Positions 16,728 through 38,088 of a DNA stretch of 59,744 nt are shown here, one piece after another. The position numbers and the translations under genes were made by a program. This DNA is from Escherichia coli (GTDB taxonomy: Bacteria > Pseudomonadota > Gammaproteobacteria > Enterobacterales > Enterobacteriaceae): assembly GCF_003334255.1 (NCBI RefSeq), contig NZ_QOWU01000029.1; one strand, 5' to 3'. The notes beneath the pieces were generated by a model. The model was given only the letters and a program-made list of their open reading frames with translations. It was not told the DNA's origin and searched no databases. Position 1 is the stretch's first letter. Each line of letters begins with the position of its first letter.

Positions 16728-16826
16728 GTGCCTAAAATGTCGGATGCGACGCTGGCGCGTCTTATCCGACCTACGGGGACGCATGTGTAGGCCGGATAAG
16801 GCGTTTACGCCGCATCCGGCAATGGT
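16728..16826. repeat. REP/BIME cluster (two inverted REP units) between norW and hypF
   Basis: gcctaaaatgtcggatgcgacgctggcgcgtcttatccgacctac and inverted copy gtaggccggataaggcgtttacgccgcatccggca. Confidence 0.85.
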
Positions 16827-16844
16827 GTCCAAATGCAACACGTT

Positions 16845-19097
16845 TTATCCGTTCTGGACTTCACCCGCTAACCAACGCGCCGCAGCAATAACCCCCTGCC
16901 CCAGAGACAAACCGCCATCACCCGCCGGTAAACTCTGTGGAAAGAGCAATGTGAAATCAGCGAGATAATGCGCCAGACGTGCACGCAGCAAACGGTTATG
17001 AATAACCCCGCCGCTAAATACCAGCGTAGTGATACCACGCATCGTGGCCTGCTCACGCATCAACGCGGCAAAACCCTGCGCCAGCGCATCATGAAACGCC
17101 CACGCGCGTTGATTAACCGGTGCCTGCCAGTTCAGCCACTGCTGCCAGAAAGTGGCGAGATCCAGTTGATTGTCCACCCGCGGCATTGTCACCGGATGCG
17201 TCACTCCGTGGCATGAGGCTGCGAGCGCCTCCAGAGCACAAGCCGCTTCACCTTCATAACTTAACGTGGCTGGCGCACAGCCCAGTGCCGCCGCCACTGC
17301 ATCGAAAAAACGCCCACACGATGACGCCAGCGGCGCGTTAATTCCACGCTCAATGGCCCGCGCCAGCACGCTCCAGTTTTGCTGTTGCACACTTGCTGTT
17401 TCAGAGTAATTCTGCCACTCCGGCACAAAGCGCAGGCACTGCGCCAGCAGGTTTCGCCACGGCTGCTTCGCTGCCAAATCGCCACCCGGAAGCGCCACTG
17501 CAGGCAAGCCGCCCAGGTGCTCACATTCGCGATAGTTCACCCGCAGGCACTCGCCGCCCCACAAAGCGCCGTTCTCCCCCATACCGATACCGTCGAGCGT
17601 CAAAGCAATGACATCACCGCCATCCAGCGGCCACTGATGCTCTGCCAGACACGCCGCTGCATGGGCATGATGATGCAGTACCGTTTGCGTCGGCAGATTC
17701 ATTTCACGCGCCCACTGGCTGGAGACATAGCCCGGATGCGCGTCATGCACAACGTATTGCGGGGTAAAATCGTAGATGTTTTGCATCAGGCGTAACGCTT
17801 CGCGCCACTGCATCTGGATGCCATCGTCACTTAAATCGCCCAGATGCTGACTCAACACCGCTTGTTCACCGCGCACCAGGCAGAAGGTATTTTTCAGATC
17901 CGCGCCGAGACACAGCACAGGCGGAACATTTTTAAAGCCCGGAGGCAAAGCCAGCGCATCCGGCACATACCCCCGCGAACGGCGCAGCATTTCGCCGCTT
18001 TCGCGCACCACCGAATCATCCATCCGCTGCACGATGTCGCGGTTATGTATCAAGAATCCGTCGGCAATGCCCTGCAAATCCGCCAGCGCCTGTTCGTTGC
18101 TGATAGCTGGTGGTTTACCGCTCAGGTTGCCGGAGGTCATCACCAGCGGGCATTGCAGTTCCTGTAACAGCAAATGCTGGAGCGGGTTCGCAGGCAACAT
18201 TACCCCGACTTCGTTAAGGTCAGGGGCGATATCATCACAAAGCTCAGGAACGTATTTTTTATCCACCAGCACAATCGGCGCGGCGGGCGTGGTAAGCAAC
18301 TGGCGCGCAGCGTCTGGTAAACCGTCAGCCACTGGCAACATGACCGCCAGCGGTTTCGCCGGGCGATGTTTGCGCGCCCGAAGTGTCGCCACCGCGTTAC
18401 TGTTACGTGCATCGCAGGCAAGATGAAATCCGCCAATCCCTTTGATGGCGACAATTTTGCCCATTTTTAACTGTGCGATAGCTGCCTGTAATGCCGCCTC
18501 TTGTTCCGCATGTTCACCATGACTTACCCATTCAAGATGCGGGCCACACTCCGGGCAGGCCACCGGCTGGGCGTGGAAGCGACGATCGAGCGGGTCACGG
18601 TACTCTTTGTCACAGGCCGGACATAGCGGAAACGCCGCCATCACGGTAAACGGGCGGTCGTAAGGCATGGCGCGAATAATGGTGAAACGCGGGCCGCAGT
18701 GGGTACAGTTGATAAACGGATAACGATAACGCCGTTCGCCTGGGGTATTCATTTCGGCAAGGCAAGCAGGGCAAGTAGCGGCATCGGGAACAATTTGCGT
18801 ATTCATGGTGCCGCCTGTGCTCTGGCGTATAGTGAACTCGGTGGGCAGTTGTGACCAGATAAACGGCTCACGCTCGACGCTATCAATACGCGCCAGCGGC
18901 GGGCAGTGCTGATACAATTGAACAAGAAACGTTTCCGGGTCTTCCCGCAGCCGGACTTCTACGCCATCGCCGTCATTACAGACATCGCCGTGAAGATTTA
19001 ATTGCTGTGCCAGCTGCCAGACAAACGGACGAAAACCGACGCCCTGCACTTTGCCACGAATACGCAGTTGGACACCGCAAGATGTGTTTTTTGCCAT
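16845..19097 (-). CDS. hypF: [NiFe]-hydrogenase maturation carbamoyltransferase HypF, about 750 aa; the track ORF is extended to 19169
   Basis: ORF track; acylphosphatase domain, two zinc-finger CxxC pairs, YrdC and Kae1-like domains. Confidence 0.95.
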
Positions 19098-35936: not shown

Positions 35937-36009
35937 TAAAATTCTAAATCTCCTATAGTTAGTCAATGACCTTTTGCACCGCTTTGCGGTGCTTTCCTGG
36001 AAGAACAAA

Positions 36010-38088
36010 ATGTCATATACACCGATGAGTGATCTCGGACAACAAGGGTTGTTCGACATCACTCGGACACTATTGCAGCAGCCCGATCTGGCCTCGCTGT
36101 GTGAGGCTCTTTCGCAACTGGTAAAGCGTTCTGCGCTCGCCGACAACGCGGCTATTGTGTTGTGGCAAGCGCAGACTCAACGTGCGTCTTATTACGCGTC
36201 GCGTGAAAAAGACACCCCCATTAAATATGAAGACGAAACTGTTCTGGCACACGGTCCGGTACGCAGCATTTTGTCGCGCCCTGATACGCTGCATTGCAGT
36301 TACGAAGAATTTTGTGAAACCTGGCCGCAGCTGGACGCAGGTGGGCTATACCCAAAATTTGGTCACTATTGCCTGATGCCACTGGCGGCGGAAGGGCATA
36401 TTTTTGGTGGCTGTGAATTTATTCGTTATGACGATCGCCCCTGGAGCGAAAAAGAGTTCAATCGTCTGCAAACATTTACGCAGATCGTTTCTGTCGTCAC
36501 CGAACAAATCCAGAGCCGCGTCGTTAACAATGTCGACTATGAGTTGTTATGCCGGGAACGCGATAACTTCCGCATCCTGGTCGCCATCACCAACGCGGTG
36601 CTTTCCCGCCTGGATATGGACGAACTGGTCAGCGAAGTCGCCAAAGAAATCCATTACTATTTCGACATTGACGATATCAGTATCGTCTTACGCAGCCACC
36701 GTAAAAACAAACTCAACATCTACTCCACTCACTATCTTGATAAACAGCATCCCGCCCACGAACAGAGCGAAGTCGATGAAGCCGGAACCCTCACCGAACG
36801 CGTGTTCAAAAGTAAAGAGATGCTGCTGATCAATCTCCACGAGCGGGACGATTTAGCCCCCTATGAACGCATGTTGTTCGACACCTGGGGCAACCAGATT
36901 CAAACCTTGTGCCTGTTACCGCTGATGTCTGGCGACACCATGCTGGGCGTGCTGAAACTGGCGCAATGCGAAGAGAAAGTGTTTACCACTACCAATCTGA
37001 ATTTACTGCGCCAGATTGCCGAACGTGTGGCAATCGCTGTCGATAACGCCCTCGCCTATCAGGAAATCCATCGTCTGAAAGAACGGCTGGTTGATGAAAA
37101 CCTCGCCCTGACCGAGCAGCTCAACAATGTTGATAGTGAATTTGGCGAGATTATTGGCCGCAGCGAAGCCATGTACAGCGTGCTTAAACAAGTTGAAATG
37201 GTGGCGCAAAGTGACAGTACCGTGCTGATCCTCGGTGAAACTGGCACGGGTAAAGAGCTGATTGCCCGTGCGATCCATAATCTCAGTGGGCGTAATAATC
37301 GCCGCATGGTCAAAATGAACTGCGCGGCGATGCCTGCCGGATTGCTGGAAAGCGATCTGTTTGGTCATGAGCGTGGGGCTTTTACCGGTGCCAGCGCCCA
37401 GCGTATCGGTCGTTTTGAACTGGCGGATAAAAGCTCCCTGTTCCTCGACGAAGTGGGCGATATGCCACTGGAGTTACAGCCGAAGTTGCTGCGTGTATTG
37501 CAGGAACAGGAGTTTGAACGTCTCGGCAGCAACAAAATCATTCAGACGGACGTGCGTCTAATCGCCGCGACTAACCGCGATCTGAAAAAAATGGTCGCCG
37601 ACCGTGAGTTCCGTAGCGATCTCTATTACCGCCTGAACGTATTCCCGATTCACCTGCCGCCACTACGCGAGCGTCCGGAAGATATTCCGCTGCTGGCGAA
37701 AGCCTTTACCTTCAAAATTGCCCGTCGTCTGGGGCGCAATATCGACAGCATTCCTGCCGAGACGCTGCGCACCTTGAGCAACATGGAGTGGCCGGGTAAC
37801 GTACGCGAACTGGAAAACGTCATTGAGCGCGCGGTATTGCTAACACGCGGTAACGTGCTGCAGCTGTCATTGCCAGATATTGTTTTACCGGAACCTGAAA
37901 CGCCGCCTGCCGCAACGGTTGTCGCCCTGGAGGGCGAAGATGAATATCAGTTGATTGTGCGCGTGCTGAAAGAAACCAACGGCGTGGTTGCCGGGCCTAA
38001 AGGCGCTGCGCAACGTCTGGGGCTGAAACGCACGACCCTGCTGTCACGGATGAAGCGGCTGGGAATTGATAAATCGGCATTGATTTAA
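36010..38088 (+). CDS. fhlA: Formate hydrogenlyase transcriptional activator FhlA (sigma54-dependent), about 692 aa; the track ORF starts at 35974
   Basis: ORF track; GAF domains, AAA+ sigma54-interaction core ([14 protein letters not shown]) and C-terminal HTH. Confidence 0.95.
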   Translation: MSYTPMSDLGQQGLFDITRTLLQQPDLASLCEALSQLVKRSALADNAAIVLWQAQTQRASYYASREKDTPIKYEDETVLAHGPVRSILSRPDTLHCSYEEFCETWPQLDAGGLYPKFGHYCLMPLAAEGHIFGGCEFIRYDDRPWSEKEFNRLQTFTQIVSVVTEQIQSRVVNNVDYELLCRERDNFRILVAITNAVLSRLDMDELVSEVAKEIHYYFDIDDISIVLRSHRKNKLNIYSTHYLDKQHPAHEQSEVDEAGTLTERVFKSKEMLLINLHERDDLAPYERMLFDTWGNQIQTLCLLPLMSGDTMLGVLKLAQCEEKVFTTTNLNLLRQIAERVAIAVDNALAYQEIHRLKERLVDENLALTEQLNNVDSEFGEIIGRSEAMYSVLKQVEMVAQSDSTVLILGETGTGKELIARAIHNLSGRNNRRMVKMNCAAMPAGLLESDLFGHERGAFTGASAQRIGRFELADKSSLFLDEVGDMPLELQPKLLRVLQEQEFERLGSNKIIQTDVRLIAATNRDLKKMVADREFRSDLYYRLNVFPIHLPPLRERPEDIPLLAKAFTFKIARRLGRNIDSIPAETLRTLSNMEWPGNVRELENVIERAVLLTRGNVLQLSLPDIVLPEPETPPAATVVALEGEDEYQLIVRVLKETNGVVAGPKGAAQRLGLKRTTLLSRMKRLGIDKSALI

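What the first reader, a model, noticed from the sequence alone, without database searches (positions are those of the whole stretch)
16728..38088. Hydrogenase maturation and formate hydrogenlyase genes split into three blocks, with REP clusters at two junctions
hypF-hydN (16.8-19.8 kb), the hyc operon (24.2-32.1 kb) and hypABCDE-fhlA (32.3-38.1 kb) all serve hydrogenase 3 / formate hydrogenlyase. hypF-hydN is separated from the rest by the ascGFB beta-glucoside module. REP clusters sit exactly at norW|hypF (16728-16826) and ascB|hycI (24094-24175). The layout suggests the asc module and/or norRVW were inserted into, or rearranged around, an ancestral hydrogenase cluster at REP-marked junctions.
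Basis: inference. Interest (0 to 1): 0.3.

Follow-up and report, generated by a model that had tools for sequence, protein, structure and literature searches.

The report
Old sugar-operon insert in hydrogenase cluster
This is the well-known E. coli K-12 hydrogenase-3 region, where a beta-glucoside sugar operon (asc) was slotted between two hydrogenase operons long before E. coli existed; the REP repeats are ordinary operon-end elements, not marks of that event.

Summary

- asc is an insertion. Serratia, Buttiauxella, Cedecea and an Enterobacterales MAG have hycI next to hydN-hypF, with no asc.
- The insertion is ancient. The order hycI-ascBF-ascG-hydN-hypF-norWV-norR-gutQ is shared by about 15 genera. 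asc composition matches its flanks, and the ascG stop abuts the conserved FhlA site upstream of hydN in every genus.
- asc-negative Escherichia and Citrobacter keep asc stubs, so they lost it. 726 of 5426 complete E. coli genomes lack asc, nearly all through one allele.
- norRVW does not split the cluster; it adjoins its end. At that junction a nickel transporter gene that follows hypF in other genera is missing.
- The REPs lie in two of the window's six convergent gene junctions, matching the published genome-wide rate of about 30%. The ascG|hydN boundary never has one, and E. coli-type REPs are missing from the other two junctions in many genera.
- REPs do act locally as targets: IS621 sits in the ascB|hycI pair in some strains.

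Ordinary and essentially already known.

The parts
12447..16717 (.). norR(-) and norVW(+): the nitric-oxide reductase module that adjoins the end of the hydrogenase cluster. It is not inside the cluster.
   Evidence: Annotation. Present next to hypF (or next to hypF plus the nickel transporter gene) across the core clade. nor-less lineages retain norR, norV or norW fragments.
16739..16820 (.). BIME 1: two REPs in opposite orientation between the convergent genes norW and hypF. It occupies the position where other genera carry a HoxN/NixA-type nickel transporter gene.
   Evidence: Folds as a long hairpin on both strands (z -4.7 and -5.9). Copy number varies: 2 REPs here, 3 in strain 1290, more in E. 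albertii. Nickel transporter gene at this position in other genera.
16845..19097 (-). hypF, carbamoyltransferase for [NiFe]-hydrogenase maturation
   Evidence: orthologues in 80 loci.
19250..19777 (-). hydN, ferredoxin-type electron-transfer protein and first gene of the hydN-hypF operon
19778..19925 (-). hydN control region: sigma-54 promoter (TGGCAT at 19830-19825) and the FhlA-type upstream palindrome (19885-19912). The left boundary of the asc insert lies immediately upstream.
   Evidence: Sequence; palindrome (I4). Both elements are conserved from E. coli to Serratia and Pectobacterium. RpoN binding in the hydN/ascG spacer by gSELEX (PMC8743547).
19926..24086 (.). The asc cassette: ascG(-), a GalR/LacI-type repressor, and ascFB(+), a PTS IIBC transporter and 6-phospho-beta-glucosidase. 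This is the inserted module.
24095..24174 (.). BIME 2: two REPs in opposite orientation between the convergent genes ascB and hycI. It is a target for IS621 and other small insertions in other strains.
   Evidence: IS621 lies between the two REPs in strain F719. An ORF is inserted in REP1 in strain 1290.
24175..24244 (-). Deletion scar. It holds remnants of both ends of a 251-aa orphan gene that lies here in other Escherichia; many E. coli also carry higBA between that gene and the BIME.
   Evidence: Comparison.
24245..32107 (-). hycABCDEFGHI, the hydrogenase 3 / formate hydrogenlyase operon
32319..38088 (+). hypABCDE-fhlA, the maturation genes and the FhlA activator, divergent from hyc

Best explanation
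The formate-hydrogenlyase genes were ancestrally one contiguous array: hypABCDE-fhlA, divergent from hycA-I, followed by hydN-hypF and a HoxN/NixA-type nickel transporter gene. Each unit had its own FhlA/sigma-54 promoter.

In an ancestor of the core Enterobacteriaceae (Escherichia, Citrobacter, Salmonella, Klebsiella, Raoultella, Kluyvera, Enterobacter, Kosakonia and relatives), a 4.2-kb ascG-ascFB cassette landed once. It went between the hycI stop codon and the FhlA site upstream of hydN. Because hydN-hypF has its own promoter, nothing was disrupted, and the cassette has been inherited vertically ever since.

Being of marginal use (it is cryptic in K-12), asc has been deleted repeatedly. 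Deletions occurred in Escherichia, with two old alleles plus one next to an IS621, and in several Citrobacter. Salmonella probably lost it too.

norRVW simply adjoins the end of the cluster. The E. coli/Citrobacter/Salmonella lineage lacks the nickel transporter gene that lies between hypF and norW in other genera. The loss itself is inferred, because E. coli keeps no remnant.

The two REP pairs are ordinary BIMEs of the kind that occupy about 30% of E. coli convergent junctions. There they act as hairpins at the 3' ends of both transcripts. They are not relics of the asc or nor events, although the ascB|hycI pair is now a local landing site for IS621 and small cargo.

Shown here: gene order, asc and nor remnants, composition, and REP distribution. 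Inferred: a single insertion, its timing, and the role of the REPs at the 3' ends.
For: - Synteny table of 80 hypF loci.
- HypF tree: one basal asc-less, nor-less group and one clade carrying asc and nor, with scattered nested absences. Outgroup families confirmed.
- asc remnants in asc-less Escherichia and Citrobacter. nor remnants in nor-less lineages.
- The ascG stop codon abuts the conserved palindrome upstream of hydN in every asc-positive genus. The sigma-54 promoter and that palindrome are conserved even in Serratia and Pectobacterium.
- asc composition and codon usage cannot be told from the flanks.
- asc protein distances track HypF distances (Pearson 0.69-0.79) as well as HydN and NorV do (0.71 and 0.60).
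- REP statistics and the published base rate.
- No repeats bracket asc.
- The nickel transporter gene follows hypF in basal and many core genera and scores above the curated cut-off for TIGR00802.
- Pectobacterium atrosepticum has asc orthologues elsewhere in its genome (PMC3349551).
Against: - Polarity rests on a single-gene neighbour-joining tree (HypF) plus taxonomy, not on a genome-wide species tree.
- Leclercia and Silvania fall in the basal group although they are usually placed near Enterobacter. Some hyp clusters may therefore have been exchanged.
- Salmonella and Intestinirhabdus show no asc remnant, so their loss is inferred by parsimony only.
- E. coli-type REPs are present at hycI|ascB in 20 of 37 loci across several genera. 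Some short spacers that lack them still carry other GC-rich palindromes. A REP already sitting at the hycI 3' end when asc arrived cannot be excluded.
- The donor locus and the insertion mechanism are unknown.
Confidence: 0.8

Rival explanations
1. One reading: asc and/or norRVW were inserted or rearranged through REP elements, which persist as junction markers. This implies a relatively recent event in the E. coli lineage.
For: - Both REP pairs lie at the ends of these modules.
- REPs are documented targets of insertion sequences and sites of recombination (PMC1525189; PMC3184786).
- IS621 sits in the ascB|hycI pair in strain F719. In strain WL164 a truncated IS621 abuts a truncated ascG and ascFB is missing.
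- One asc-deletion allele ends inside that REP pair (E. whittamii).
Against: - The same gene order is found in about 15 genera.
- There is no compositional signal.
- The ascG|hydN boundary has no REP in 56 of 56 loci.
- E. coli-type REPs are absent at hycI|ascB in 17 of 37 loci and at hypF|norW in 35 of 58.
- REP copy number varies even among E. coli strains.
- Two of six convergent junctions with a REP equals the genome-wide rate.
- The observed REP-linked events are later deletions and small insertions, not the origin of asc.
Confidence: 0.05
2. asc was ancestral at this site in all Enterobacterales, and the basal lineages (Serratia, Buttiauxella, Cedecea) lost it cleanly. On this view the split layout is the original one.
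For: asc is clearly prone to deletion. Salmonella lacks it without any trace.
Against: - Every basal locus lacks asc, across more than one family, and shows no remnant in blastn with word size 7. Spacers are as short as 173-244 bp.
- P. atrosepticum carries asc orthologues at a different locus (PMC3349551).
Confidence: 0.08
3. The hycI 3' flank is an integration hotspot, and asc entered it independently several times in different genera.
For: Many unrelated cargoes occupy this flank in different genera: toxin-antitoxin pairs, a TonB-dependent receptor, orphan genes and IS621.
Against: - The orientation and the left junction are identical in all 56 asc-positive loci: the ascG stop abuts the hydN upstream palindrome, with a 136-167 bp spacer.
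- asc distances co-vary with the flanking genes.
Confidence: 0.05

Closest known systems
E. coli K-12 61-minute region as annotated in RefSeq: hydN-hypF, the cryptic asc operon, hyc, hyp-fhlA
   Same: Identical genes, order and coordinates. The sigma-54 sites at hydN/ascG and hycA/hypA are already mapped (PMC8743547). A published comparison figure already notes that ascBF and ascG lie inside the E. coli cluster while their P. atrosepticum orthologues lie elsewhere (PMC3349551).
   Different: Nothing in the sequence differs. Added here are the dating of the insert (before the Escherichia/Klebsiella/Enterobacter split), the catalogue of secondary losses, and the missing nickel transporter gene.
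REP / BIME elements of E. coli
   Same: About 35-nt imperfect palindromes with a GCCGGATG head and a CTTATCCGGCCTAC tail. They are extragenic, paired in opposite orientation and lie between convergent genes. This matches the published distribution: about 60% of REPs lie between convergent genes, and about 30% of convergent junctions hold one.
   Different: None. They are typical members.
The variable folA-apaH intergenic region of E. coli, which holds the ccdO157 toxin-antitoxin system (Mine et al. 2009, as reviewed in PMC3184786)
   Same: A strain-variable spacer between conserved metabolic genes that holds toxin-antitoxin modules in some strains and only scars in others. The hycI 3' flank behaves the same way, with higBA and other toxin-antitoxin-like pairs (mazEF-like, SymE-like).
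   Different: Here the variability extends across genera, and the flank also holds a 4.2-kb catabolic operon. IS621 is seen directly inside the REP pair.
Nickel transporter genes of the HoxN/HupN/NixA family embedded in hydrogenase clusters (from my own knowledge: HoxN of Cupriavidus, HupN of Bradyrhizobium)
   Same: A gene of this family directly follows hypF on the same strand in Serratia, Buttiauxella, Klebsiella, Kluyvera and others.
   Different: The gene is absent from E. coli, Citrobacter and Salmonella. In E. coli the slot holds only a REP pair.

Membership tests
REP/BIME | Match to the E. coli REP consensus (about 35-nt imperfect palindrome with conserved head and GTAG/CTAC-type tail) | tested here: met
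   match with 2 mismatches and 0 expected; exact head and tail half-sites at 16787-16820 and 24095-24128. Stems.
REP/BIME | Extragenic location, typically at 3' ends of genes or between convergent genes | tested here: met
   Both lie in the convergent spacers norW|hypF and ascB|hycI.
REP/BIME | Two or more REPs in alternating orientation (the BIME arrangement) | tested here: met
   A plus/minus pair at each site.
REP/BIME | High copy number across the genome | tested here: met
The asc-only query hit a median of 1 place.
Recently acquired genomic island (for asc) | Base composition or codon usage deviating from the host | tested here: not met
   asc GC 0.537, GC3 0.618, codon-usage distance 0.139, the lowest of all blocks. 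No step in the composition profile.
Recently acquired genomic island (for asc) | Mobility genes, an adjacent tRNA, or flanking direct or inverted repeats | tested here: not met
   No repeats bracket 19926-24086. No integrase or transposase in K-12. The only tRNAs are at 148-317.
Recently acquired genomic island (for asc) | Patchy distribution among close relatives, with empty sites that show no scar | tested here: not met
   asc is present in 4698 of 5426 E. coli genomes and in about 15 genera. The empty sites in Escherichia and Citrobacter carry asc remnants, so they are deletions.
Ancient insertion into a conserved gene array (for asc) | Outgroups have the flanking genes adjacent and uninterrupted | tested here: met
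   hycI|hydN spacer of 173 bp in Serratia, 231 bp in an Enterobacterales MAG and 244 bp in Buttiauxella sp. B2. Tree.
Ancient insertion into a conserved gene array (for asc) | The same junction in all carriers, and co-divergence with the flanking genes | tested here: met
   Left junction conserved in 56 of 56 loci. Distance correlations of 0.69-0.79 with HypF. The right junction is too variable to compare.
FhlA/sigma-54 formate regulon transcription unit (for hydN-hypF) | A -24/-12 sigma-54 promoter plus an upstream FhlA-type palindrome | tested here: met
   TGGCAT-N5-TGTGA and the palindrome at 19885-19912, conserved across families. RpoN binding reported in PMC8743547. FhlA binding itself was not tested here.

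The most novel reading that the evidence does not exclude
The 3' flank of hycI is a long-lived integration and turnover hotspot in Enterobacteriaceae. asc was its earliest and largest cargo. Since then it has collected toxin-antitoxin modules (higBA, mazEF-like, SymE-like, a RelE/HTH pair), orphan genes and IS621 through the resident REP pair. One old asc-deletion allele is shared between about 13% of E. coli and E. albertii, either as a polymorphism older than the species split or as a recombined allele.
Probability: 0.35. Interest if true: 0.3.

Novelty: already known. Interest (0 to 1): 0.15.

Why it matters
It matters little for biology at large. The locus is textbook E. coli, and the REPs behave as REPs do everywhere.

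The useful outcomes are corrective:
- The layout reflects one ancient, fully assimilated insertion followed by repeated loss of a dispensable operon. It is not a recent REP-mediated rearrangement.
- REPs at module boundaries should not be read as insertion scars, because they favour convergent operon ends in any case.

Three side observations may interest specialists in hydrogenase maturation or E. coli population genomics:
- an ancestral hydN-hypF-nickel transporter unit that E. coli has lost;
- one asc-deletion allele in about 13% of E. coli that is shared with E. albertii;
- the hycI flank as a collecting point for toxin-antitoxin modules.

Tried and rejected
- Rfam scan of the window found only two tRNAs. 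Rfam has no REP family and nothing else turned up.
- Intrinsic-terminator scan found nothing at either convergent junction, and the total was at shuffle level.
- A search for direct or inverted repeats bracketing asc found none.
- A search for a nickel transporter remnant in E. coli by tblastn (E <= 1e-5) found none.
- Pfam and NCBIfam searches on the 251-aa orphan gene next to hycI gave no family. NCBIfam also gave nothing for the RefSeq-annotated HigB and HigA.
- I first read the 52-61 bp hycI|ascB spacers as free of REPs. On inspection they carry other GC-rich hairpins, some resembling REPs of a different sequence type. I therefore claim only that the E. coli-type consensus is absent.
- The MG1655 RefSeq record lists no REP features in this stretch.
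- The literature search for a dedicated evolutionary study of asc at this locus found only passing mentions.
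Full report
**What the window is.** The 9-kb core of the finding is 100% identical to E. coli chromosomes and 99.9% identical to a K-12 derivative. Locus coordinates there are window coordinates plus 1.

**Check of the observation.**
- Both REP clusters are real. Each is a pair of about 35-nt REPs in opposite orientation (a BIME), at 16739-16774/16787-16820 and 24095-24128/24145-24174.
- A long REP pattern had no match in 100 shuffles of the window.
- A half-site scan found no other complete REP in the 59.7 kb.
- Both pairs fold into long hairpins on either strand. 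No canonical intrinsic terminator lies at either junction.
- 'Three blocks' overstates the split. hyc and hyp-fhlA are adjacent divergent operons, so only asc interrupts the hydrogenase genes.

**Are REPs at the junctions more than chance?** No.
- Both spacers separate convergent genes. The window has six convergent pairs: gutQ|norR, norW|hypF, ascB|hycI, fhlA|ygbA, pphB|ygbI and ygbN|rpoS. Two of them hold REPs.
- A recent genome-wide analysis reports that about 60% of E. coli REPs lie between convergent genes, and that 207 of 704 convergent spacers (about 30%) contain one (bioRxiv 10.64898/2026.03.23.713779).
- Two of six is that base rate. Convergent spacers are operon ends by definition, so they are 'block junctions' automatically.

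**Comparative synteny.** I fetched 80 hypF loci with 10-kb flanks from one genome per species and placed 29 window proteins on them by tblastn.
- The order hycI-ascBF-ascG-hydN-hypF-(nickel transporter)-norWV-norR-gutQ-srl recurs in Escherichia, Citrobacter, Klebsiella, Raoultella, Kluyvera, Enterobacter, Lelliottia, Kosakonia, Phytobacter, Pseudocitrobacter, Superficieibacter, Trabulsiella, Yokenella, Pluralibacter and Pseudescherichia.
- In a HypF neighbour-joining tree rooted on Serratia, a basal group lacks both asc and nor at this locus. This group holds Serratia, an Enterobacterales MAG, Pectobacterium, Cedecea, seven Buttiauxella, Silvania, Leclercia and Entomohabitans.
- Where hycI is present in that group, it lies next to hydN, with spacers as short as 173-244 bp.
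- Serratia belongs to Yersiniaceae and Pectobacterium to Pectobacteriaceae.

**The insertion is single and old.**
- In every asc-positive genus the ascG stop codon directly abuts the palindromic FhlA-type site upstream of hydN. The spacer from ascG to hydN is 136-167 bp in 56 of 56 loci.
- That palindrome and the sigma-54 promoter are also conserved in asc-less Serratia, Pectobacterium, Cedecea and Buttiauxella. hydN-hypF therefore had its own promoter before asc arrived, which explains why the insertion was harmless.
- RpoN binding in the hydN/ascG spacer is documented (PMC8743547).
- asc has GC 0.537 and GC3 0.618, and its codon-usage distance to the rest of the window (0.139) is the lowest of all blocks. 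The composition profile shows no step.
- Pairwise distances of AscB, AscF and AscG correlate with those of HypF (Pearson 0.69-0.79). HydN and NorV correlate with HypF at 0.71 and 0.60.
- No direct or inverted repeats bracket the cassette.
- A published figure legend already notes that the P. atrosepticum asc orthologues lie elsewhere in that genome (PMC3349551).

**Absences inside the core clade are losses.**
- E. coli strain 1290 lacks asc but keeps 77 nt of the ascB 3' end and a decayed stub of the ascG 3' end.
- E. albertii shares the same left junction.
- E. whittamii and Escherichia sp. MOD1 share a second allele. It keeps 40 nt of ascG and ends inside the REP pair.
- Citrobacter youngae and two other Citrobacter keep internal ascG or ascB fragments.
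- Salmonella and Intestinirhabdus show no remnant, so their loss is inferred by parsimony only.
- Among 5426 complete E. coli genomes, 4698 carry asc and 726 have no asc match. Those 726 all carry the replacement module of strain 1290, and 721 share its junction. One old allele therefore explains almost all asc-negative E. coli.

**norRVW.** It lies beyond hypF, the terminal gene, so it does not split the cluster. The four nor-less loci (Escherichia sp. MOD1, two Kosakonia, one MAG) keep norR 3', norW 3' or norV fragments, so they are deletions. What did change at this junction is different. A gene of the HoxN/HupN/NixA nickel transporter family (TIGR00802, 395.9 bits against a cut-off of 333) follows hypF on the same strand in the basal taxa. 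It also does so in Klebsiella, Raoultella, Kluyvera, Enterobacter, Lelliottia and Yokenella. It is absent in Escherichia, Citrobacter, Salmonella and Kosakonia. In E. coli the norW|hypF REP pair fills that slot.

**REPs across genera.**
- The E. coli-type REP tail motif is absent from ascG|hydN in 56 of 56 loci, from hycI|ascB in 17 of 37 and from hypF|norW in 35 of 58.
- In Kosakonia, hypF and norW almost touch (0-27 bp).
- Some short hycI|ascB spacers carry other GC-rich hairpins, a few resembling REPs of another sequence type. These convergent ends seem always to hold some palindrome, which fits a role at the 3' ends of transcripts rather than a scar.
- REP number at norW|hypF varies even within Escherichia.

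**What is true of the REP idea.** REPs are known targets of insertion sequences (PMC1525189; PMC3184786), and this locus shows it.
- IS621 sits between the two REPs of the ascB|hycI pair in strain F719.
- In strain WL164 a truncated IS621 abuts a truncated ascG, and ascFB is gone.
- In strain 1290 a 145-aa ORF interrupts REP1.
- These are later, local events. They are not the origin of the layout.

**Verdict.** norRVW is a neighbour rather than an insert, and the REPs are ordinary operon-end elements. The locus and its elements are already known. The added reconstruction is tidy but unsurprising, so interest is low.

Noticed in passing
window 16718-16844; L036 12226-13239, and the equivalent position in about 45 other loci: A HoxN/HupN/NixA-family nickel transporter gene directly follows hypF on the same strand in Serratia, Pectobacterium, Buttiauxella, Cedecea, Klebsiella, Raoultella, Kluyvera, Enterobacter and others. 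This suggests an ancestral hydN-hypF-nickel transporter unit. The gene is missing in Escherichia, Citrobacter, Salmonella and Kosakonia, and E. coli has only a REP pair there.
   Followed up: partly
window 24087-24244; L085 6111-8276; L027 2263-2903; L018 3850-4089; L053 6287-6882; L072 518-7194: The 3' flank of hycI holds different small cargo in different genera. Found here: higBA plus a 251-aa orphan secreted protein (Escherichia), a mazEF-like pair (Pseudocitrobacter), SymE-like genes (Citrobacter amalonaticus, Intestinirhabdus), a toxin plus HTH-antitoxin pair (Buttiauxella), and a TonB-dependent receptor with a toxin-antitoxin pair (Silvania). It looks like a recurrent integration spot.
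   Followed up: partly
window 24175-24244: The K-12 spacer between the REP pair and hycI is a deletion scar. It joins the 3' and 5' ends of the 251-aa orphan gene at a short ACATCCC repeat. About 1900 other asc-positive E. coli genomes still match the higA-and-neighbouring-gene segment next to hycI.
   Followed up: partly
L002 7990-8290; L006 hycI-hydN spacer: 721-726 of 5426 complete E. coli genomes share one asc-deletion allele. Its left junction, including a decayed ascG stub, is also present in E. albertii NBRC 107761. The allele is therefore older than the species split or has moved by recombination. E. whittamii and Escherichia sp. MOD1 carry a second, independent deletion allele.
   Followed up: partly
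L083 8630-9930; L084 5987-7473: IS621, the REP-targeting IS110-family element known as a bridge-RNA recombinase, is inserted between the two REPs of the ascB|hycI pair in strain F719. In strain WL164 a truncated copy abuts a truncated ascG, and ascFB is deleted. In F719 the short linker between the REPs also appears inverted relative to K-12.
   Followed up: partly
L020, L021, L026 (Phytobacter, Kosakonia sp. S29); L038, L043, L060, L063, L080: Some genera keep hycI next to asc but lack hycA-H, so that hypA lies next to hycI. Others carry a more distant hyf-like set (HycE about 72% identical, HycF about 47%) with an fhlA-like gene beside hycI.
   Followed up: no
window about 59100-59744: A CRISPR array downstream of iap begins at the right end of the window, according to the RefSeq annotation.
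   Followed up: no
L075 (contig DXKH01000019.1, labelled Citrobacter MAG): A 6.8-kb contig in a Citrobacter MAG is 98-100% identical to E. coli across asc-hydN-hypF. The same MAG also has a genuine Citrobacter copy (L011). This is probably E. coli contamination of the bin.
   Followed up: no
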